Positions 22,600 through 56,740 of a DNA stretch of 64,000 nucleotides are shown here, piece by piece. The translations under genes and the position numbers were made by a program. How positions within the stretch are numbered: the first letter of the stretch is position 1; each line of letters opens with the position of its first letter. The stretch lies in assembly GCF_058153355.1 (NCBI RefSeq), contig NZ_CM177019.1; one strand, 5' to 3'. Under the pieces are notes generated by a model. It ran no database searches, had not been told where the DNA came from, and saw only the letters and a list, made by a program, of their open reading frames with translations.

Positions 22600-22770
22600 G
22601 CCGGAAAAGCAGGCACCTGCCGTCTGAACGGTATCGATCCGGAAGCGTATCTGCGCCATATTCTGAGCATACTGCCGGAATGGCCCTCCAACCGTGTTGA
22701 CGAACTCCTGCCATGGAACGTAGTTCTCACCAATAAATAAGCGTCAATACGGTGCTCCGTTGACGCTGAT
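22600..22770 (+). mobile_element. IS66-family transposase 3' remnant and terminal repeat tip
   Basis: Encodes ...GIDPEAYLRHILSILPEWPSNRVDELLPWNVVLTNK*, matching the C-terminus of the intact IS66-family TnpC at 41197-42768; end sequence resembles the IS66 terminal repeat. Confidence 0.7.
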
Positions 22771-24280
22771 ATGACTTTCCGTGTCAAACCGGAATCTCTA
22801 ATTTTGACGATTTTCTTTTTAGGTTTAATTCCCTGAGGGCGACGTAGCAGTAAATCCGACGGTGAATCACGCTGATATTCGCGGGTTGGATACCGCATTA
22901 CAGAGGTCCGTCATATGAGCCTGCCACTTTCTTACGTCGCGAATCAGCTTTGTTCCGCCGTCGCCAAGCGCTAACGTGGGTTACTCTTGTACCGGGCTAC
23001 GTCGCCTTCAGGGAACTGGTTATTCTCATTTTTTATTTGTGACATTGTGGTTGTTGTGCGACAGACATTGCTATTCGGCCCATATCCCAGATAAAACCCG
23101 CCAGCTCACGTGCAACAGCAACAATTGTAATATTGACATTCTTTCCTTTGGCCTGAAGTTTTCGATACCTCTTACAAAGCCTGAGTTGAGCATCCCATGC
23201 TCTGTCAATGACGGGGCGGGGTAAATTTTCCTGCCTTTTTTGTATTGCCGGACTGATGCGTGCCGGATGACGGTAACTCCACGCTGCCTCGACCAATAGC
23301 TTTCTGGCATAGCTGTTTCCGGCTTTGGTAATGCTGCCCTGATGTCTGCTTCCACCCGATGAATATTCTGATGGCGTGATACCAAACCATGACATCAGTT
23401 GTCGTGGATGTTCAAAACGGGTCAGATCACCCAGTTCAGAAATTAATCCAACCGCAGTAATAAACTGAATCCCTCGCATGGCTTGCAGCGCCTCTACTAC
23501 CGGATACAGCCTCCATTCGGTAACGGCCTCCTTCAGGGCGGATTCCAGCCGTTCACATTGTGCCTGCCGGTCTTCTATTGTACGACGGTGTTCGTCAAAA
23601 GCTAATTGTCGCCAGGGACTTTCGAATGAGTATTTGCTGAGCCAGCGTCGGTGTGCAGGGCCCCAATCTGCTCGCCCGACATAATGGACCCCATGAACCA
23701 GAAGAAACGATTTCAGACGTTGCCTTGCATGCCGTAAATCATCGCGGGCAGATGCCCATGCCCGGGCCAAATCCCGGAATGCCTCATCTTCAATGCCGGG
23801 TACGTAGACAGCAGAAAGATCTCCTGCACGCAGTGAACGCACAAGTCTGATGGCATCACGGCGATCGGTTTTAACCCGCTCCCCCGGTTTTTTCGGGATA
23901 AGTGAGGGGGCGCAGACCATGCAGTCAAAACCGGATTTCACCAGCCGACGATAAAGTCCATAACCACAGGGCCCCGCTTCATAAACGATACTGACCTGCG
24001 ATGACTTTGACCTGAGACGTTTACAAAGATTCTGAATATCAGTAGGTGATGTGCCAATTTTACCCATCAGTTCAACAGGTTCTGAATTGATAGCATAAGC
24101 GACAGTAATCGATTCTTTGTGAACATCTAACCCGACGTACAATGTGTTATTGTTGTTCATGCTGGCCTCCGTGGTGGAAATACCGGGGTGTAGCAACAGC
24201 TCACCCATGCGGCTCTGACAACGATGTTAACCCGCGTTAAATATCCCACGTTGGCCAGCATCTGTCTCACGGAAAGTCAT
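22771..24280 (-). mobile_element. IS110-family insertion sequence, copy 1 (about 1,510 bp, 13-bp imperfect terminal inverted repeats ATGACTTTCCGTG)
   Basis: Identical to copy 2 at 54561-56070 in inverted orientation; ends atgactttccgtg (22771) and cacggaaagtcat (24268-24280). Confidence 0.85.
23033..24160 (-). CDS. IS110-family DEDD transposase/recombinase
   Basis: ORF 23033-24208; start set at MNNNNTLYVGLDVHK; N-terminal RuvC-like DEDD region (GLDVHK, YEAGPCGY, DRRDA) and C-terminal IS110 domain (ITKAGNSYARKLL). Confidence 0.88.
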   Translation of the reverse strand: MNNNNTLYVGLDVHKESITVAYAINSEPVELMGKIGTSPTDIQNLCKRLRSKSSQVSIVYEAGPCGYGLYRRLVKSGFDCMVCAPSLIPKKPGERVKTDRRDAIRLVRSLRAGDLSAVYVPGIEDEAFRDLARAWASARDDLRHARQRLKSFLLVHGVHYVGRADWGPAHRRWLSKYSFESPWRQLAFDEHRRTIEDRQAQCERLESALKEAVTEWRLYPVVEALQAMRGIQFITAVGLISELGDLTRFEHPRQLMSWFGITPSEYSSGGSRHQGSITKAGNSYARKLLVEAAWSYRHPARISPAIQKRQENLPRPVIDRAWDAQLRLCKRYRKLQAKGKNVNITIVAVARELAGFIWDMGRIAMSVAQQPQCHK

Positions 24281-24398
24281 ACTGCCTTACCTTTTCTCAG
24301 GCTATTTTTGCTTTTTTTTGCTTTTCCCCGCCACTTTATGGTGATTATCACATCAATATACATCGATAGATATTAACGTAACTGAAGTGAGGTGAAGC

Positions 24399-28389: not shown

Positions 28390-28712
28390 TTTTTTGCATG
28401 CCCGTATTCAACGGCTTCTTTAAGGAGTTCATTTTCCATCGTTTTTTTGCCGAGCAGGCGCTGGAGTTCTTTAATCTGCTTCATGGCAGCAGCAAGTTCA
28501 GAGGCAGGAACGACCTGCTCTCCTGCGGCCACAGCAGTAAGACTTCCCTCCTGGTATTGCTTGCGCCAGAGAAATAACTGGCTGGCTGCCACACCGTGTT
28601 GCCGGGCAACAAGGGAGACCGTCATTCCCGGTTCAAAACTCTGCTGAACAATAGCGATCTTTTCCTGTGTAGTACGCCGTCTGCGTTTCTCCGGTCCTAA
28701 GACATCAATCAT
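28347..28712 (-). CDS. insC: IS2 OrfA (InsC, HTH)
   Basis: [41 protein letters not shown]; overlaps orfB in the -1 frame. Confidence 0.9.
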
Positions 28713-29789
28713 CTGCTCTCCAATGACTAGTCTAAAAACTAGTATTAAGACTATCACTTATTTAAGTGATATTGGTTGTCTGGAGATTCAGGGGGCCAGT
28801 CTACACTTCCTCATGAACATCTGTTCAACGATCTTTCCTCTGTTGTGGATGCTCCTTGCTATCCTTTTTCACAACGGCTTGTTGATAAAAAAGTCACGGC
28901 AGAAATCCAGTGGGCATTAAAACACGATCCTTATTGCTGCGCTGATAATATGGACCGCAAACCTATTGAAGATGTGATCTTCGAAATTAATAACTTTATC
29001 TCGCTCGGTGGTCGCACCATTATTGATGCCACAGGGTCTGAGTCTATCGGACGAGATGCGCAGGCATTACGAGAAGTCGCATTAAAAACAGGTCTGAATA
29101 TTGTTGCTTCCTCCGGTCCCTACCTGGAAAAATTTGAAAACCAGAGAATTCATAAAACGGTTGATGAACTGGCGACAACGATCGATAAAGAATTGAATCA
29201 AGGGATTGGCGATACGGATATTCGTGCCGGAATGATCGGTGAAATAGGTGTTTCACCGACATTTACCGAAGCCGAGCATAACAGCTTGCGGGCTGCCTCG
29301 CTGGCACAGATTAACAATCCTCATGTGGCGATGAATATTCACATGCCGGGCTGGCTTCGTCGCGGTGATGAAGTACTCGACATTGTGTTAGGTGAAATGG
29401 GCGTCTCGCCAAATAAAGTCTCTCTCGCACACTCGGATCCGTCAGGAAAAGACGTGGCGTATCAGCGGAAAATGCTTGATAAAGGTGTCTGGCTGGAATT
29501 CGACATGATTGGCCTAGACATTACCTTCCCGAAAGAGGGAATAGCGCCAGGGGTGCAGGAGACTGCCGATGCCGTCGCTCATCTCATTGAGTTGGGATAC
29601 GCCGATCAGCTTGTTCTCAGCCACGATGTCTTCCTTAAACAAATGTGGGCTAAAAATGGCGGTAATGGCTGGGGATTTGTTCCAGATGTTTTTCTGGCCT
29701 ATCTGGCGGAGCGCGGCGTCGATAAAACGATCCTCAAAAAACTCTGTATCGATAATCCCGGACGATTATTGACCGCATAAAACCATTAT

Positions 29790-38970: not shown

Positions 38971-40404
38971 AAGGGGTAAGCTGAAATCGTTTATGGATTA
39001 CATCGACATATGCCTGGCAGAGAATGTCCGGAATGACGAGGTTATCTTTGCGGAGATTAAGGCAATGGTATACGGGCCGACGTTCCATGCCGCGTTACTA
39101 CATTCAGCCCGGACGTAAAATGCGCCCGTCAAAAAGAACGGTTCGCTTCGAAACTCAGCCAGGATACCACCTCTCCGCCACACCCGAGAAGAAGTTGATA
39201 TGGTGGTTGCCGGACAACAGCGCTCCTGGATTGACTGCTGCATCACTCAACCACGCTGAATATCAAAGGAGAGCGTTACCGGTTAAAAGAGAAACGTAAA
39301 GCTGTGGTGATGACCCAAAACGCAACGCCTGTCAGTGAGGATGAAATGGTGAAAAGCGGACAGCATCAGTAACGGAAGTATCTTAGCGGGTACGAAAATG
39401 GCAGGATCGTGACATTGACAGAATATCTCCTGATCATCCTGAATGACTGCAGTTGCTGTAGAAAAGTAAGCTGTCTCCACCCACGGCACCACTTAACAGG
39501 CATTCCGTAACTTCCCCCAGACTTACTATGACGCATTATCGGTGCACTGAAAACGGGAGAGTGCGCTTAAAACCGCAGACCGCATGCGGGTGTTACTGCA
39601 TGACAGTCTGGCCGTATTGTGAGATGTCGGCAGGAACCGATGTCCGCGCAGGGGGGAACTTCCTGCAGTACCTGACGCTTCAAATGGTATTAACCGTAGG
39701 GTGTTGTTGGTTCCGGATCGCGGAAATGGGAGCACAGGTCTGCTACGGGGTGTACCTCTGACAGTATATCCGGCTCGCTCATCTGACAGCCTCTCTCCCG
39801 GAAAAGACCAAAAATGAGATCGTCTCCTCAACAGCAGAGAAGAGGTCTTGACAGACAGGCTACATTGCATACGATTTATGAAGAAAAAGACAGCAAATAT
39901 GGAGGTTATAGCGGAGAATACCCTACGAAATTCCTATGAAAAACGATTGAAAAAAATATCAAATTCGATTCGTTTTTATATGCTTTTTGGGAGCGTGGCG
40001 ATGACGAACTGTTGCATGTGCAGAGGAGAATGCACCCGGAAGCACCAGAATCATCCAGAAAGGCAGAACGATTACGCATCAAACCAGGAGACAGCAATAT
40101 CAAGGTAATATACTGATTTAAAATGAATTTACAGCAATACGTAAAAACATTTTTTACTTAAAGGAGACAGATGCGCTGAAGAGAGTGCAGGTATTTTTAT
40201 ATAAAAATGAGAAGTTTACGGGATGTATATCCGGCACACTATGACCGGAGAATATCAGTCAAGCTTAAAAAGACAATAAATACAGTGAGTTAAATACACA
40301 GAGAAAACGTAGTATCAGAGGGTACATCTGTAAGCGTCTTATCAGGACCGTCTGGCAAATTCCCGATGCTTTGGACAAAGTATCCACCACTAAATTAATA
40401 GTGG

Positions 40405-40833
40405 GTGATAAAAATGTCAGATATACAAAAAAATGCCTCTCCGGGAAGGCCTAAAGGGTGCCTGAATTATCCTCCTGAATTCAAACAACGACTCATAGAA
40501 GCATCATTCCAGCCAGGTGTTTCAATTTCCAGACTGGCCCTGGACAATGGTATTAATGCCAATCTGTTGTTCAAATGGCGTCAGAAATGGCGGCAGGGGA
40601 AGATAAAATTGCCATCATCAGAATCAGGCAGAGAATCTCAGTTAATTCCTGTCACTATTGATGCCCAACTCCCAACTGCTCCGGCTAATGAGCCACTGAC
40701 CGCAAGACCGTCAGTAACACCGGAAATACACAGCATCTCCTGTGAGATTACGTTCAGAAACGGCACCCTTCGGTTGAACGGGGCAGTGAATGAAAATCTG
40801 CTGTCCTTGCTTATACAGGAGCTGAGACGGTGA
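40405..40833 (+). CDS. IS66 family accessory protein TnpA (Orf1)
   Basis: 142-aa ORF, first gene of the IS66 module. Confidence 0.85.
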   Translation: MIKMSDIQKNASPGRPKGCLNYPPEFKQRLIEASFQPGVSISRLALDNGINANLLFKWRQKWRQGKIKLPSSESGRESQLIPVTIDAQLPTAPANEPLTARPSVTPEIHSISCEITFRNGTLRLNGAVNENLLSLLIQELRR

Positions 40834-41177
40834 TATCTCTCCCTGCAGGTTCGCGTATCTGGCTGGTTGCAGGTATCACCGATATGCGAAATGGCTTTAA
40901 CGGCCTGGCCTCAAAAGTTCAGAACGTCCTGAAGGATGACCCGTTCTCCGGGCATCTGTTCATCTTCCGCGGACGCCGGGGTGACCAGATAAAAGTGTTG
41001 TGGGCTGACAGTGACGGACTGTGCCTCTTCACCAGACGCCTGGAGCGGGGCCGCTTCGTCTGGCCGGTCACCCGTGACGGCAAGGTGCACCTTACTCCGG
41101 CCCAGTTATCCATGCTTCTTGAGGGCATCGACTGGAAACACCCGAAACGAACGGAACGCGCTGGCATCCGCATATAA
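40830..41177 (+). CDS. IS66 family TnpB (Orf2)
   Basis: 115-aa ORF MISLPAGSRIWLVAGITDMRNGFNGL typical of IS66 Orf2. Confidence 0.88.
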   Translation: MISLPAGSRIWLVAGITDMRNGFNGLASKVQNVLKDDPFSGHLFIFRGRRGDQIKVLWADSDGLCLFTRRLERGRFVWPVTRDGKVHLTPAQLSMLLEGIDWKHPKRTERAGIRI

Positions 41178-41196
41178 CCCGTTGTAAAGTGAGGAT

Positions 41197-42768
41197 ATGG
41201 ACACCTCACTTGCTCATGAGAATGCCCGCCTGCGGGCACTGTTGCAGACGCAACAGGACACCATCCGCCAGATGGCGAAATACAACCGCCTGCTCTCACA
41301 GCGGGTGGCGGCTTATGCTTCCGAAATCAACCGGCTGAAGGCGCTGGTTGCAAAACTGCAGCGCATGCAGTTCGGTAAAAGCTCAGAAAAACTTCGTGCA
41401 AAAACCGAACGGCAGATACAGGAAGCACAGGAGCGAATCAGCGCTCTTCAGGAAGAAATGGCGGAAACGCTGGGTGAGCAATATGACCCGGTACTGCCAT
41501 CTCCCCTGCGCCAGTCTTCAGCCCGTAAACCGTTACCTGCCTCACTTCCCCGTGAAACCCGGGTCATCCGTCCGGAAGAGGAATGCTGCCCGGCCTGTGG
41601 TGGCGAACTCAGTTCTCTGGGATGTGATGTGTCAGAGCAACTGGAGCTTATCAGCAGCGCCTTTAAGGTTATCGAAACACAACGTCCGAAACTGGCCTGT
41701 TGCCGGTGCGACCATATCGTGCAGGCTCCGGTGCCTTCAAAACCCATTGCACGCAGTTATGCCGGAGCGGGGCTTCTGGCCCATGTTGTCGCTGGAAAAT
41801 ATGCAGACCATCTGCCGTTATACCGCCAGTCAGAAATATACCGTCGTCAGGGCGTGGAGCTGAGCCGTGCCACACTGGGGCGCTGGACAGGTGCTGTTGC
41901 TGAACTGCTGGAACCGCTGTATGACATCCTGCGCCAGTATGTGCTGATGCCCGGTAAAGTCCATGCCGATGATATCCCCGTTCCGGTCCAGGAGCCGGGC
42001 AGCGGTAAAACAAGGACTGCCCGGCTGTGGGTCTACGTTCGTGATGACCGTAACGCCGGTTCGGAAATGCCTCCGGCGGTCTGGTTCGCGTACAGCCCGG
42101 ACCGGAAAGGTATCCATCCACAGAATCATCTGGCCGGTTACAGCGGAGTGCTTCAGGCCGATGCTTACGGTGGTTACCGGGCGTTGTACGAATCCGGCAG
42201 AATAACGGAAGCCGCATGTATGGCTCATGCCCGGAGAAAAATCCACGATGTGCATGCAAGAGTGCCCACCGACATCACCACGGAAGCCCTGCAGCGTATC
42301 GGTGAACTGTATGCCATCGAGGCAGAGGTCCGGGGCTGTTCAGCAGAACAGCGTCTGGCGGCAAGAAAAGCCAGAGCCGCGCCACTGATGCAGTCACTGT
42401 ATGACTGGATACAGCAACAGATGAAAACACTGTCGCGTCACTCGGACACGGCAAAAGCGTTCGCATACCTGCTGAAACAGTGGGATGCACTGAACGTGTA
42501 CTGCAGTAATGGCTGGGTGGAAATCGACAACAACATCGCAGAGAACGCCTTACGGGGAGTGGCCGTAGGCCGGAAAAACTGGCTCTTCGCGGGTTCTGAC
42601 AGCGGTGGTGAACATGCTGCGGTGTTGTACTCGCTGATCGGCACATGCCGTCTGAACAATGTGGAGCCAGAAAAGTGGCTGCGTTACGTCATTGAACATA
42701 TCCAGGACTGGCCGGCAAACCGGGTACGCGATCTGTTGCCCTGGAAAGTTGATCTGAGCTCTCAGTAA
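41197..42768 (+). CDS. IS66 family transposase TnpC (Orf3)
   Basis: 523-aa ORF with leucine-zipper N-terminus, CxxC zinc motif, DDE domain, C-terminus ...[10 protein letters not shown]. Confidence 0.9.
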
Positions 42769-42967
42769 ATATCAATACGGTTCTGGCGAGCCGCTTACGT
42801 ACATCTTACAACAGAGACTGAATTTCCGGTTTTTCATAACCGGCGCATTCCGGAAAGTGCAGGCGGCCCGGAGGTTTTCTGACGCCACTACCTGGTAGAT
42901 TGTTCTGTACATCATGTACGGAGGTTTTTGTTTGCTTTTTTAAAATCTGCAAATGTGAGAAAAGCAG

Positions 42968-54135: not shown

Positions 54136-54490
54136 GACAATGCAGTGATGCAGGGTATAGTGCCATTAACCACAGAAACAGCACTGTTGTCCTGTATTAA
54201 GCAGGCAAGAGAAGATGTCCTTACCCTGCGCCATCTGCAGCTTCTGCACCAGAACCGGTGAATCTCACTCAACAGGCTTCATTTCCCCTGACGCCAGCCT
54301 GAATACAGCTGGCGTTTTCATTTATAAACAGAAAGGAAAACCGATAATAATGGAATGGACGCCCCGACCATGAAGCAACGGTAGGATATTACTGATAAAC
54401 CTTCCAGTGGAGGTGCGTTATGGCCGTTTTAACGATTAGCATTGACCTGACAAAAAATGAATTCCAAATCCACGGTCTGGGTAGGAACAG

Positions 54491-54552
54491 AAAAATCTAA
54501 GCTCAGAAAACGGATTAAAGTAAAAATCTAAGCTCAGAAAACGGATTAAAGT
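54491..54552 (+). repeat. Perfect 31-bp tandem duplication (2 copies) abutting the left end of IS110-family copy 2
   Basis: aaaaatctaagctcagaaaacggattaaagt at 54491-54521 and again at 54522-54552. Confidence 0.9.
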
Positions 54553-54560
54553 AAGGCAGT

Positions 54561-56070
54561 ATGACTTTCCGTGAGACAGATGCTGGCCAACGTGGGATAT
54601 TTAACGCGGGTTAACATCGTTGTCAGAGCCGCATGGGTGAGCTGTTGCTACACCCCGGTATTTCCACCACGGAGGCCAGCATGAACAACAATAACACATT
54701 GTACGTCGGGTTAGATGTTCACAAAGAATCGATTACTGTCGCTTATGCTATCAATTCAGAACCTGTTGAACTGATGGGTAAAATTGGCACATCACCTACT
54801 GATATTCAGAATCTTTGTAAACGTCTCAGGTCAAAGTCATCGCAGGTCAGTATCGTTTATGAAGCGGGGCCCTGTGGTTATGGACTTTATCGTCGGCTGG
54901 TGAAATCCGGTTTTGACTGCATGGTCTGCGCCCCCTCACTTATCCCGAAAAAACCGGGGGAGCGGGTTAAAACCGATCGCCGTGATGCCATCAGACTTGT
55001 GCGTTCACTGCGTGCAGGAGATCTTTCTGCTGTCTACGTACCCGGCATTGAAGATGAGGCATTCCGGGATTTGGCCCGGGCATGGGCATCTGCCCGCGAT
55101 GATTTACGGCATGCAAGGCAACGTCTGAAATCGTTTCTTCTGGTTCATGGGGTCCATTATGTCGGGCGAGCAGATTGGGGCCCTGCACACCGACGCTGGC
55201 TCAGCAAATACTCATTCGAAAGTCCCTGGCGACAATTAGCTTTTGACGAACACCGTCGTACAATAGAAGACCGGCAGGCACAATGTGAACGGCTGGAATC
55301 CGCCCTGAAGGAGGCCGTTACCGAATGGAGGCTGTATCCGGTAGTAGAGGCGCTGCAAGCCATGCGAGGGATTCAGTTTATTACTGCGGTTGGATTAATT
55401 TCTGAACTGGGTGATCTGACCCGTTTTGAACATCCACGACAACTGATGTCATGGTTTGGTATCACGCCATCAGAATATTCATCGGGTGGAAGCAGACATC
55501 AGGGCAGCATTACCAAAGCCGGAAACAGCTATGCCAGAAAGCTATTGGTCGAGGCAGCGTGGAGTTACCGTCATCCGGCACGCATCAGTCCGGCAATACA
55601 AAAAAGGCAGGAAAATTTACCCCGCCCCGTCATTGACAGAGCATGGGATGCTCAACTCAGGCTTTGTAAGAGGTATCGAAAACTTCAGGCCAAAGGAAAG
55701 AATGTCAATATTACAATTGTTGCTGTTGCACGTGAGCTGGCGGGTTTTATCTGGGATATGGGCCGAATAGCAATGTCTGTCGCACAACAACCACAATGTC
55801 ACAAATAAAAAATGAGAATAACCAGTTCCCTGAAGGCGACGTAGCCCGGTACAAGAGTAACCCACGTTAGCGCTTGGCGACGGCGGAACAAAGCTGATTC
55901 GCGACGTAAGAAAGTGGCAGGCTCATATGACGGACCTCTGTAATGCGGTATCCAACCCGCGAATATCAGCGTGATTCACCGTCGGATTTACTGCTACGTC
56001 GCCCTCAGGGAATTAAACCTAAAAAGAAAATCGTCAAAATTAGAGATTCCGGTTTGACACGGAAAGTCAT
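54561..56070 (+). mobile_element. IS110-family insertion sequence, copy 2 (inverted relative to copy 1)
   Basis: Ends atgactttccgtg (54561) and cacggaaagtcat (to 56070); internal sequence identical to copy 1 over all inspected ORFs. Confidence 0.85.
54681..55808 (+). CDS. IS110-family DEDD transposase/recombinase
   Basis: Same 375-aa protein as copy 1; GGAGG RBS at 54671. Confidence 0.88.
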   Translation: MNNNNTLYVGLDVHKESITVAYAINSEPVELMGKIGTSPTDIQNLCKRLRSKSSQVSIVYEAGPCGYGLYRRLVKSGFDCMVCAPSLIPKKPGERVKTDRRDAIRLVRSLRAGDLSAVYVPGIEDEAFRDLARAWASARDDLRHARQRLKSFLLVHGVHYVGRADWGPAHRRWLSKYSFESPWRQLAFDEHRRTIEDRQAQCERLESALKEAVTEWRLYPVVEALQAMRGIQFITAVGLISELGDLTRFEHPRQLMSWFGITPSEYSSGGSRHQGSITKAGNSYARKLLVEAAWSYRHPARISPAIQKRQENLPRPVIDRAWDAQLRLCKRYRKLQAKGKNVNITIVAVARELAGFIWDMGRIAMSVAQQPQCHK

Positions 56071-56740
56071 ATCAGCGTTAATGGAGAATCATATTGATGC
56101 TTATTTATTGGTGAGAACTACGTTCCATGGCAGGAGTTCATCAATACGGTTGGAAGGTTATTCCGGCAGTACGCTCAGGATATGGCGCAGATACGCTTCC
56201 GGATCAATGTCGTTCAGAAGGCAAGTGCCGATAAGCCCATACAACAGTGCACTGCGCTCGCCGCCGAAGAACATAAAGTTTTTATTTCCGAGACAGATGG
56301 CACAAAGGGCTTTTTCCGCGGCATTATGTCTGCCTCCGCCTGACCGTCAACACTGTAATAACAGAGTGCGCCCCACTGATTCAGTACACAGCTGAACCAT
56401 TCTCCCAGTCTGGATTTTTGGATAGCGTGGCATTTTTCTCCACCATGCATGCAGTGAGTCCAGTAACAGTTTGCTCTTCTTCTGCCTGACCACAAGATGT
56501 GCTGGACTGGTAAACGATGGGGATACCTGCTTACGCGAGAGCAATAAGTGGCTGGCCACAATTCTCGGTACAAAACTCTGCTGAATAGCAGCGATTTTCC
56601 CAGCGTGGTGCGTCGTTTGCATTTTACTGGTTCTAAGTTAACAATTATCTGTTCACTAATGACTACTCTAAAAACTTGTATCAGGACTATCACTTATTTA
56701 AGTGATATTGGTTGTCTGGAGATTCAGGGGGCCAGTCTAT
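56071..56740 (-). mobile_element. Composite IS remnant: IS66-like tnpC 3' fragment plus IS2-like terminal fragment
   Basis: 56071-56400 encodes an IS66 TnpC C-terminal tail on the minus strand, about 85-90% identical to the remnant at 22600-22770; 56650-56740 is an IS2-type terminal repeat (GGGGGCCAGTCTA). Confidence 0.65.

What the first reader, a model, noticed from the sequence alone, without database searches (positions are those of the whole stretch)
56058..56420. Both IS110-family copies are inserted at the same position in the tip of two diverged IS66-like ends
On the recombinase-distal side each copy abuts ...cacggaaagtcat|ATCAGCGT(C/T)AA(C/T)GGAG..., which aligns with the terminal inverted repeat (GTAAGCG...) and 3' end of an IS66-family tnpC. 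The two flanking IS66-like remnants (22600-22770 and 56071-56400) differ at several positions, so they are different, older IS66-like copies rather than one duplicated region. On the other side both copies are preceded by the same 10 bp GTAAGGCAGT. This indicates sequence-specific targeting of IS66-family ends by this element.
Basis: seen in the sequence. Interest (0 to 1): 0.5.

Follow-up and report, generated by a model that had tools for sequence, protein, structure and literature searches.

The report
RNA-guided ISSso6 lands in IS66 tips
Two identical copies of the known insertion sequence ISSso6 sit three bases inside the tips of two different old IS66-type elements because its own guide RNA matches a short motif (GTA^AGCG-Y-TAAC) that IS66 ends happen to carry, but the same element also lands at ordinary chromosomal sites with that motif.

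Summary
Two 100% identical copies of ISSso6 (IS110 family, IS1111 type) each abut an IS66-family terminal repeat at the same nucleotide. The two IS66 remnants are only 88% alike.

The boundaries need correcting. Empty alleles in other E. coli show a 1520-bp element (54554-56073 +; 22768-24287 -). Of the "shared 10 bp GTAAGGCAGT", only GTA is IS66 tip. AGGCAGT is the element's own 7-nt left extension.

A survey of about 20 further junctions shows a short target, (G)TA^AGCG(C/T)TAAC. About half the sites are IS66-family ends of at least five sequence types. The rest are unrelated, for example inside tkt, inside sopA and in an intergenic site.

The 3' non-coding region folds into a conserved RNA. 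One internal loop carries CGTTAGCGCT (complement of AG+CGCTAACG) and GTAAG (same sense as GTA+AG). Across 31 relatives with other targets, these two segments covary with their own flanks (z about 9 and 8 against permutation).

So this is bridge/seekRNA-guided insertion. IS66 tips are frequent near-cognate targets, not the exclusive ones. Close relatives carry guides tuned to other IS66 tip variants. The result is a known element with a known mechanism and a newly defined target. Interest is modest.

The parts
54554..56073 (+). ISSso6 copy B, complete 1520-bp element: 7-nt left extension AGGCAGT, 13-bp subterminal repeats, 3-nt right extension ATC
   Evidence: 100% identical to copy A. RefSeq annotates matching DNA as an ISSso6 family transposase. 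Boundaries come from empty alleles.
22768..24287 (-). ISSso6 copy A, complete 1520-bp element
   Evidence: boundaries from empty alleles.
54681..55808 (+). Transposase/recombinase gene of copy B (375 aa from MNNNN; an upstream ATG at 54633 would give 391 aa)
   Evidence: Pfam DEDD_Tnp_IS110 and Transposase_20. The first ~100 residues shown of the ISfinder ISSso6 protein printed in a paper supplement are identical.
23033..24160 (-). Transposase gene of copy A
   Evidence: Identical ORF.
54561..54573 (+). Left subterminal inverted repeat ATGACTTTCCGTG (copy B)
   Evidence: Perfect 13-bp complement of 56058-56070.
56058..56070 (+). Right subterminal inverted repeat CACGGAAAGTCAT (copy B). TTGACA at 56054-56059 is conserved in all relatives and is a likely -35 box of a circle-junction promoter (inferred).
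55824..56020 (+). Structured non-coding RNA region (bridge RNA / seekRNA) closed by a long basal stem
   Evidence: MFE z-score -4.64. Consensus structure over 33 relatives has compensatory pairs.
55865..55875 (+). Target guide 1 (5' strand of the target-binding loop): CGTTAGCGCTT, the reverse complement of A+AG+CGCTAACG. [quoted passage not shown]
   Evidence: Positions 55872-55869 are complementary to right-flank positions +1..+4 in 87-97% of 31 relatives. Permutation test: 153/248 against 95.8+-6.0. The L004 site matches the guide at all 8 right-flank positions.
55906..55910 (+). Target guide 2 (3' strand of the same loop, 55903-55913): GTAAG, same sense as left flank GTA plus core AG. It pairs with the bottom strand.
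   Evidence: 55906-55908 match left-flank positions -3..-1 in 80-93% of relatives. Permutation test: 98/155 against 55.3+-5.5.
55963..55971 (+). ATATCAG+CG. ATATCAG is invariant and same sense as the right end ATATC plus core AG (candidate donor guide). The next base tracks the first base of the right flank (handshake-like).
   Evidence: 55970 equals right-flank position +1 in 97% of relatives; alignment. Assignment is by analogy with the IS621 handshake guides (PMC11208158).
55989..55994 (+). TACTGC, conserved, complementary to GCAGTA of the left end. Tentative second donor guide.
   Evidence: Conserved in the alignment. No covariation was detected with the only variable donor position, so this stays tentative.
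56074..56497 (+). IS66-family remnant 2, read inward from position 4 of its terminal repeat (AGCGTTAATGGAG...), with the tnpC 3' end on the - strand
   Evidence: 83% identical to ISEc23-type element positions 4-445. Annotated as an IS66 family transposase in genomes with the empty allele.
22612..22767 (-). IS66-family remnant 1 (AGCGTCAACGGAGCACCG...), the K-12 yeeW-yoeF remnant
   Evidence: 96% identical to ISEc23-type element positions 4-159. K-12 empty site.
54551..54553 (+). GTA: the first three bases of the IS66-type terminal repeat, cut off from the rest of it by copy B
   Evidence: Empty allele GTAAGCGTCAACGG.
24288..24290 (-). GTA tip cut off by copy A
   Evidence: Empty allele.

Best explanation
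The element is ISSso6, an IS1111-type member of the IS110 family. It moves by RNA-guided recombination.

Its 3' non-coding region encodes a structured RNA. One internal loop of that RNA carries two short guides:
[quoted passage not shown] The recombinase then joins the circularised element (junction ...CATATC-AG-GCAGTATG...) to any DNA reading GTA-AG-CG(C/T)TAAC. Orientation is fixed and no target duplication results.

IS66-family terminal repeats begin GTAAGCG and often continue T(C/A/T)AAC. They are therefore multi-copy near-cognate sites. Insertion falls 3 bp (or 5 bp, counting the shared AG) inside the repeat and separates its tip from the rest.

Both window copies arose this way at two independent IS66 remnants. 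A later recombination between the two inverted copies inverted the ~30 kb between them and swapped their flanks.

**Shown:** identity of the element, exact boundaries, target motif, independence of the sites, conserved RNA structure, guide-flank covariation.

**Inferred:** that the RNA is made, binds the recombinase and is required; the donor-loop assignment; the circular intermediate.
For: - **Identity and domains:**
- **IS1111-type anatomy:**
  - 13-bp subterminal repeats, 7-nt and 3-nt extensions and no duplication, all fixed by four empty alleles.
  - These are the features described for the family in PMC11187229.
- **Target motif:** from 14 right flanks and 15 left flanks, GTA in 14-15/15 left flanks, AGCG in 13-14/14 right flanks, Y at +5 in 13/14, then T/A, A, A.
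- **Guide match:** the NCR holds the exact reverse complement of AAGCGCTAACG. The L004 site pairs at all 8 right-flank positions. Occupied sites pair at 4-8 of 8 positions, apart from the decayed-copy outlier (L007/L008) and one IS66 end type (L011/L012). Unoccupied GTAAGCGY sites in the window pair at 2-4.
- **Covariation:** in 31 relatives (70-95% protein identity, different targets) the NCR is conserved except two short segments that track each element's own flanks.
- **Permutation of flanks among elements:** 153 against 95.8+-6.0 (max 116 of 5000), and 98 against 55.3+-5.5 (max 79).
- **Structure:**
  - Both segments lie on opposite strands of one internal loop.
  - The loop is closed by stems with compensatory changes: CCAC:GTGG against CCGC:GCGG, and an inner hairpin pair with 12 double changes.
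- **Handshake-like base:** 55970 tracks right-flank position +1 in 97% of relatives, matching the IS621 handshake-guide logic.
- **Prior classification:** a published table lists ISSso6 as IS1111 group with a predicted bridge RNA in the right end.
Against: - No experimental data exist here on the RNA or on transposition.
- Rfam has no matching family.
- The donor-binding loop could not be resolved. No NCR column covaried with the only variable donor position, and predicted pairings around ATATCAG differ between methods.
- The guide is not a perfect match to the IS66 tips that it occupies. There is one mismatch plus one wobble at the ISEc23-type end, and only 3-4 of 8 positions pair at two tnpA-side end types. 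Mismatch tolerance, or selection for harmless sites, must therefore be invoked.
- One decayed 98% variant sits at AGTGAATG, which fits poorly.
- Some flanks have been swapped by recombination between copies, so left and right flanks are not always from one event.
Confidence: 0.85

Rival explanations
1. ISSso6 and its close relatives are specialised parasites of IS66-family ends. The guide is kept tuned to IS66 tips, and non-IS66 sites are off-target accidents of a recent burst in Shigella and enteroinvasive E. coli.
For: - IS66-type ends make up roughly 40-50% of distinct sites. The minimal 8-mer GTAAGCGY occurs about as often as chance predicts in ordinary DNA: 5 in this 64-kb window against 3.4 expected.
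- At least five IS66 end sequence types are occupied, on both ends of the element.
- The Serratia relative (90% identical) carries CGTTGACGCT, a perfect complement of the ISEc23-type tip AGCGTCAACG.
- The 85% relative carries GGCTACGCT and sits at three IS66-type ends.
- The Salmonella relative (95%) sits at an IS66-like repeat.
- Old decayed remnants at IS66 ends are widespread in E. coli.
Against: - ISSso6's own guide is a perfect match to a non-IS66 sequence (AGCGCTAACG), not to any IS66 tip seen here.
- The Serratia relative's sequenced site is not an obvious IS66 end.
- Most Burkholderiaceae relatives target unrelated sequences.
- The excess at IS66 ends could come from selection. Insertions in dead elements are harmless and persist, whereas insertions in genes are purged.
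- The sample is small and partly chosen by flank.
Confidence: 0.35
2. The two copies and their IS66-like flanks are one segmental duplication (or a duplication plus an inversion) rather than two insertions.
For: The inverted repeat found by the repeat finder spans the IS plus about 160 bp of IS66-like flank.
Against: - The IS copies are 100% identical, but the flanks are only 88% identical.
- DNA beyond GTA on the other side is unrelated.
- Each site has its own uninterrupted allele in other genomes.
Confidence: 0.01
3. The recombinase protein itself recognises the IS66 terminal repeat, and the RNA complementarity is coincidental.
For: Subterminal repeats of the element are probably protein-recognised. 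Older literature assumed protein recognition for IS1111-type targeting of transposon ends.
Against: - Insertions occur at non-IS66 sites that share only the short motif.
- Guide segments covary with flanks across relatives whose proteins are 70-95% identical.
- There is an experimental precedent for RNA guidance in both subfamilies (PMC11187229, PMC11208160).
Confidence: 0.03

Closest known systems
ISEc11, ISKpn4, ISPa11 (IS1111-type elements with a 3' seekRNA; Siddiquee et al. 2024, PMC11187229)
   Same: - DEDD recombinase.
- 11-13-bp subterminal repeats with 7-nt and 3-nt terminal extensions.
- Long non-coding region downstream of the gene.
- No target duplication.
- Guide complementary to the top strand placed 5' of the guide complementary to the bottom strand.
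- Natural retargeting among relatives by changes confined to the guide segments.
   Different: - The target is different: GTA^AGCGYTAAC.
- The recombinase is longer (375 aa against 330-350 aa) and only about 17-25% identical to other catalogued members.
- The RNA has not been shown experimentally for ISSso6.
IS621 bridge RNA system (Durrant et al. 2024, PMC11208160; Hiraizumi et al. 2024, PMC11208158)
   Same: - An internal target-binding loop whose two strands read the two DNA strands on either side of a 2-nt core.
- The core AG is CT on the other strand, as in IS621.
- A base next to the donor guide tracks the target, like the IS621 handshake guides.
   Different: - The RNA lies at the 3' end, not the 5' end.
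- Guide polarity relative to the gene is flipped.
- The left target arm is only 3 nt plus core.
- The subterminal repeats are long.
- The donor loop architecture is unresolved here.
IS4321/IS5075 (target the 38-bp ends of Tn21-family transposons) and the IS1111-attC group (target integron attC sites)
   Same: An IS1111-type element that repeatedly lands at one fixed position and orientation inside the recombination end of another mobile element.
   Different: - The host element here is the IS66 family.
- The association is not exclusive: about half of the sites are ordinary DNA carrying the motif.
- What I know of IS4321/IS5075 rests on the title and citations of Partridge & Hall 2003, which could not be opened.

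Membership tests
IS110 family, IS1111 group (element ISSso6) | Recombinase with an N-terminal DEDD (RuvC-like) domain and a C-terminal Transposase_20 domain | tested here: met
   PF01548 at 2.6e-11 and PF02371 at 8.2e-24. RefSeq names matching DNA an ISSso6 family transposase. The sequence agrees with the ISfinder ISSso6 protein fragment.
IS110 family, IS1111 group (element ISSso6) | Subterminal inverted repeats of about 11-13 bp | tested here: met
   Perfect 13 bp, ATGACTTTCCGTG / CACGGAAAGTCAT.
IS110 family, IS1111 group (element ISSso6) | Terminal extensions beyond the repeats, 7 bp on the left and 3 bp on the right, with no target duplication | tested here: met
   Four empty alleles give AGGCAGT (7) and ATC (3). 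AG is shared with the target. The rule is stated in PMC11187229.
IS110 family, IS1111 group (element ISSso6) | Long non-coding region downstream of the recombinase gene | tested here: met
   265 nt (55809-56073), against 127 nt upstream of the MNNNN start codon.
IS110 family, IS1111 group (element ISSso6) | Recombinase length typical of the group (330-350 aa) and clear full-length similarity to IS1111-type proteins | tested here: not met
   The protein is 375 aa and only about 17-25% identical to other ISfinder entries in the published matrix. This is a typical feature rather than a defining one. A published table still files ISSso6 under IS1111.
IS110 family, IS1111 group (element ISSso6) | Circular intermediate with a junction promoter | not testable with these tools
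   Only indirect evidence: TTGACA is conserved in the right end of all relatives, and joining the ends would place CAGTAT 17 nt downstream (reading of the sequence).
Bridge RNA / seekRNA-guided recombinases | Conserved structured RNA in the non-coding end | tested here: met
   z = -4.64. The consensus structure has 48 pairs, 8 of them with compensatory changes, over 33 sequences.
Bridge RNA / seekRNA-guided recombinases | An internal loop whose two strands are complementary to opposite DNA strands on either side of the insertion point and change with the target | tested here: met
   Column-by-column covariation, permutation tests, loop placement.
Bridge RNA / seekRNA-guided recombinases | A second loop that reads the element's own joined ends (donor) | tested here: inconclusive
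   Conserved ATATCAG and TACTGC match the ends. The ends hardly vary, no covariation was found, and the loop geometry is unclear.
Bridge RNA / seekRNA-guided recombinases | The RNA is bound by the recombinase and is required for movement | not testable with these tools
   Needs an experiment.
Bridge RNA / seekRNA-guided recombinases | Match to a curated RNA family | tested here: not met
   No Rfam 15 hit at E <= 1 in 54400-56500. This reflects the content of the library more than the RNA.
Elements dedicated to the ends of another mobile element (IS4321/IS5075-like behaviour) | Insertions confined to the terminal repeat of the host element | tested here: not met
   At least 7 distinct non-IS66 sites, two of them with proven empty alleles in core chromosomal DNA.

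The most novel reading that the evidence does not exclude
The enterobacterial ISSso6 lineage may be an RNA-guided hyperparasite of IS66-family elements. Its guide would be kept near the conserved IS66 tip GTAAGCG and retuned to local tip variants. Examples are the Serratia relative, whose guide is a perfect complement of the ISEc23-type tip, and the 85% relative, tuned to the GTAAGCGTA variant.

Insertion 3 bp inside the repeat would disable that IS66 end while giving ISSso6 a harmless, mobile, multi-copy landing pad. If so, it would be a third documented class of IS1111-type elements living in the ends of other mobile DNA, alongside those targeting Tn21 ends and attC sites.
Probability: 0.35. 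Interest if true: 0.5.

Novelty: new member of a known kind. Interest (0 to 1): 0.35.

Why it matters
- **A defined target and boundaries for ISSso6.** ISSso6 is one of the elements tracked in Shigella sonnei and enteroinvasive E. coli genomics. The corrected 1520-bp boundaries help annotation and insertion-site mapping.
- **A natural data set on mismatch tolerance.** The insertion sites show how much mismatch a bridge/seekRNA-guided recombinase tolerates in nature: the seed GTA-AG-CGY plus variable extension. That bears on off-target prediction for engineered bridge recombinases.
- **A covariation set for IS1111-type bridge RNAs.** About 30 relatives share one scaffold but have many different targets.
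- **An explanation for a recurrent pairing.** It shows why ISSso6 and IS66 remnants co-occur in E. coli islands and invasion plasmids, and how identical copies drive inversions.

None of this overturns current understanding.

Tried and rejected
- **Rfam scan** of the element and flanks found nothing.
- **Apparent guide swap.** A 95.6% copy that matches only the first 1328 bp looked like a natural guide swap. It is a copy truncated by another IS fragment.
- **Single-sequence MFE.** It pairs GCUGAU with AUCAGC and buries the candidate donor guide. The family alignment does not support that helix, so I did not use it.
- **Donor covariation.** I looked for NCR columns that covary with the variable donor base after the core (G/T/A). 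There was no clear signal.
- **Burkholderia targets.** I suspected that GTAAGCGCGGCAATC (L038, L072) and the Variovorax site (L080) were also IS66 ends. The ORFs in the L038 and L072 flanks show no obvious IS66 genes, by eye and without a family scan. L080 is too short to tell.
- **Negative control.** I considered the third IS66 element in the window as a clean negative control. Its tips pair poorly with the guide, but one occupied IS66 end type (L011/L012) pairs almost as poorly, so it is only weak evidence.
- **Literature.** Partridge & Hall 2003 could not be opened. Searches found no paper describing the ISSso6 target or IS66-end targeting.
- **Census bias.** The junction query lists one place per record and is biased toward its own flank, so I did not use it to estimate the share of IS66 sites.
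Full report
**1. What is in the window**

The repeat finder reports one long inverted repeat, 22612-24293 against 54548-56229, at 99% complementarity. Aligning the two regions shows three zones:
- a 1510-bp core that is 100% identical, bounded by perfect 13-bp inverted repeats (ATGACTTTCCGTG ... CACGGAAAGTCAT);
- on one side, about 160 bp of flank that is similar but clearly diverged;
- on the other side, only GTAAGGCAGT in common, then unrelated DNA.

The core encodes a 375-aa protein (391 aa from an upstream ATG) with the DEDD_Tnp_IS110 and Transposase_20 domains. RefSeq annotates identical DNA in E. coli as "IS110-like element ISSso6 family transposase". The protein agrees with the ISfinder ISSso6 sequence printed in a paper supplement.

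**2. The flanks are IS66-family ends, and the boundaries need correcting**

The diverged flanks match an intact ISEc23-type IS66-family element from its fourth base inward:
- 22767-22612 at 96% to element positions 4-159;
- 56074-56497 at 83% to positions 4-445.

The intact element ends GTAAGCGTCAACGGAGCACCG on its tnpC side and GTAAGCGTAAACCGAC on its tnpA side. The two window remnants share 138/156 bases.

Almost all hits to the flank in 6109 E. coli records start at query base 4, after ATC. This suggested that ATC belongs to the IS. K-12 (DH5a) confirms it. Between yeeW and the EutP-like fragment it reads ...cggattaaaGTAAGCGTCAACGGAGCACCG... with no insert.

The inserted DNA is therefore AGGCAGT + 1510 bp + ATC = 1520 bp. 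AG is present at both junctions but only once in the empty site.

A 13-bp subterminal repeat, 7-nt and 3-nt extensions, a long downstream non-coding region and no target duplication are exactly the features given for the IS1111 type (PMC11187229). A published table files ISSso6 as IS1111 group with a predicted bridge RNA in the right end.

**3. Two independent sites and an inversion**

In K-12 the left flank of copy B (yeeW side) is contiguous with the right flank of copy A (yoeF-yeeX side). The reciprocal join, left flank of copy A plus right flank of copy B, is found uninterrupted at 100% over 180 bp in the best-matching E. coli genomes, including Nissle 1917. Its best match is 99% identical or better in 1424 records. 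There it is annotated as an IS66 family transposase remnant.

So there were two separate insertions into two different IS66 remnants. Recombination between the two inverted, identical copies then inverted the ~30 kb between them. A segmental duplication is excluded.

**4. Where else the element sits**

I read junctions from five E. coli records. I read ten more places that encode the identical protein and were chosen without regard to flank, and two decayed remnants.

Every copy has N...(G/A)TA | AGGCAGT on the left and ATC | AG... on the right.

*Right flanks at IS66-type ends:*
- AGCGTCAACGGAG and AGCGTTAATGGAG (this window);
- AGCGTAAACTGACCGCC (L016, followed by IS66 tnpA, tnpB and tnpC genes);
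- AGCGTACAGCCTGAACC (L011 and L012, likewise);
- AGCGTAAAGCCTGTG (L020, a remnant widespread in E. coli);
- an old, decayed remnant at another tnpC-side end (L019).

*Right flanks at non-IS66 sites:*
- AGCGCTAACGGGTG (L004, intergenic on the nhaA side);
- AGCGTTAACGTAAC (L009);
- AGCGTTAAGCGTAT (L013, inside tkt);
- AGCGTTACGTTCC (L005, invasion plasmid near virF);
- AGCGCTGGGAGC (L006, splitting a sopA pseudogene);
- AGCGCTATGCGC (L010, L014 and L018);
- AGCGCTCCGAG (L015).

With the 1520 bp removed, the L004 and L013 flanks match uninterrupted DNA at 100% over 140 bp in other E. coli genomes. This both confirms the boundaries and proves insertion into ordinary chromosomal DNA.

But what they share is a motif of about 11 bp, not an IS66 end.

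**5. The guide RNA**

The 265-nt region after the stop codon folds far better than shuffles (z = -4.64). It contains CGTTAGCGCTT (55865-55875), the exact reverse complement of AAGCGCTAACG, and GTAAG (55906-55910).

To test whether these are guides, I collected relatives. The protein has thousands of homologues at 70-95% identity in Salmonella, Serratia and above all Burkholderiaceae. One scan of species-representative genomes returned 77 loci.

Their ends are nearly the same as in ISSso6...GTCATATC|AG on the right, and (T/A)|AG(G/T/A)CAGTATGAC on the left. Their flanks differ widely.

The aligned non-coding regions are strongly conserved except for two short segments, which track each element's own flanks. 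For example:
- ACACAGCT with flank AGCTGTG;
- AGAACGCT with AGCGTTC;
- AAGATACT with AGTATCT;
- on the other segment, GAACAAG with left flank GAACA+AG, and CCATAG with CCAT+AG.

A blind scan of every flank position against every variable alignment column gave three results:
- 55872-55869 are complementary to +1..+4 in 87-97% of 31 elements;
- 55906-55908 are the same sense as -3..-1 in 80-93%;
- 55970 is the same sense as +1 in 97%.

Permuting flanks among elements gave 153/248 paired positions for own flanks, against 95.8+-6.0 (maximum 116 in 5000 permutations). For the left guide it gave 98/155 against 55.3+-5.5 (maximum 79).

The consensus structure places the two segments on opposite strands of one internal loop (55866-55876 and 55903-55913). 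The loop is closed on the outside by CCAC:GTGG, which becomes CCGC:GCGG in the Burkholderiaceae. On the inside it is closed by a hairpin with up to 12 double compensatory changes per pair.

This is the anatomy of a target-binding loop. The order, top-strand complement first, is the one reported for IS1111-type seekRNAs. Read on the other strand, the core is CT and the loop has the IS621 layout.

The invariant ATATCAG (55963-55969) equals the right end plus core. The next base tracks the target, as the IS621 handshake guides do. TACTGC (55989-55994) complements the left end. I could not settle the geometry of the donor loop.

**6. How well the guide explains the sites, and the IS66 question**

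Scoring right-flank positions +1..+8 against the guide:

| Site | Pairing |
|---|---|
| L004 (intergenic) | 8/8 |
| L009 | 7 + 1 wobble |
| Window IS66 ends | 6 + 1 or 2 wobbles |
| Other occupied sites | 3-5 Watson-Crick pairs, plus up to 2 wobbles |
| Decayed 98% copy at AGTGAATG (L007/L008) | 2 + 3 wobbles |
| Five unoccupied GTAAGCGY sites in the window | 2-4 |
| Both tips of a third, intact IS66-family element (40330-42797: GTAAGCGTCTTATC and GTAAGCGGCTCGCC) | 2 or fewer |

So the seed is GTA-AG-CGY, and extension matches raise the chance of use.

IS66 tips are over-represented relative to the roughly chance-level frequency of the 8-mer. This could reflect their extended match (AAC, G), their copy number, or survival of harmless insertions. 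These data cannot separate those causes.

Close relatives point to a lineage habit:
- The Salmonella element (95%) has the same guide and sits at an IS66-like repeat.
- The Serratia element (90%) carries CGTTGACGCT, a perfect complement of the ISEc23-type tip, although its sequenced site is GTAAGCGTTATTCC.
- An 85% relative from metagenomes carries GGCTACGCT and sits at three IS66-type ends, next to IS66 genes.

Most Burkholderiaceae relatives target other sequences.

**7. Verdict**

Insertion is sequence-specific and IS66 ends are a major target class. But the determinant is a short RNA-read motif, and IS66 is not required.

The element and the mechanism are known. The defined target, the covariation set and the IS66 association were not found in the literature I could search. 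I rate it a new member of a known kind, of modest interest.

Noticed in passing
window 24288-54553: The ~30 kb between the two inverted ISSso6 copies is inverted relative to the K-12 and Nissle arrangement. Copy B's left flank and copy A's right flank are contiguous in K-12. The reciprocal pair is contiguous in other E. coli genomes, including Nissle 1917. The likely cause is homologous recombination between the identical copies.
   Followed up: yes
window 54492-54553: A perfect 31-bp tandem duplication (aaaatctaagctcagaaaacggattaaagta x2) ends exactly at the left junction of copy B. K-12 has one copy. The cause is unknown: slippage, or a by-product of IS activity.
   Followed up: partly
window 40330-42797: A third, apparently intact IS66-family element (ORFs 40405-40833, 40830-41177, 41197-42768). 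Its tips GTAAGCGTCTTATCAGG and GTAAGCGGCTCGCCAG are unoccupied and pair poorly with the ISSso6 guide.
   Followed up: partly
L014 2890-3095; L015 2890-3051; L062 right flank: Partial tandem copies of the element's right end. The right end (ATC) is joined to the element's own non-coding region at AGCGCTTGGCGACGG (the DNA encoding the guide, which contains the palindrome AGCGCT) or at AGTGGCAGGCTC. This looks like self-targeting of the guide-encoding DNA.
   Followed up: partly
L026, L027, L029, L037, L041, L042, L048, L052, L067: In several Burkholderiaceae relatives the right junction reads TC|AA. In all of these except L042 the left junction reads |AG. Donor and target cores therefore appear to differ by one base. 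This could inform where the strands are cut.
   Followed up: no
L016 versus L004: The same left flank (nhaA side, ...gacggctGTA) is joined in one genome to the matching intergenic right flank, and in another to an IS66 tnpA-side end. This is further flank swapping by recombination between copies.
   Followed up: no
window 28660-28803 and 56596-56739: A 144-nt direct repeat at 84% identity, just beyond IS66 remnant 2 and about 28 kb upstream. Not identified.
   Followed up: no
L020 and about 20 listed E. coli records with the same 28%-coverage match (rows H16-H36): A recurrent decayed ISSso6 remnant (part of the gene plus the last ~80 bp, with most of the guide region deleted) is fixed next to an IS66 tnpA-side end. 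This indicates an old insertion that predates the active copies.
   Followed up: partly
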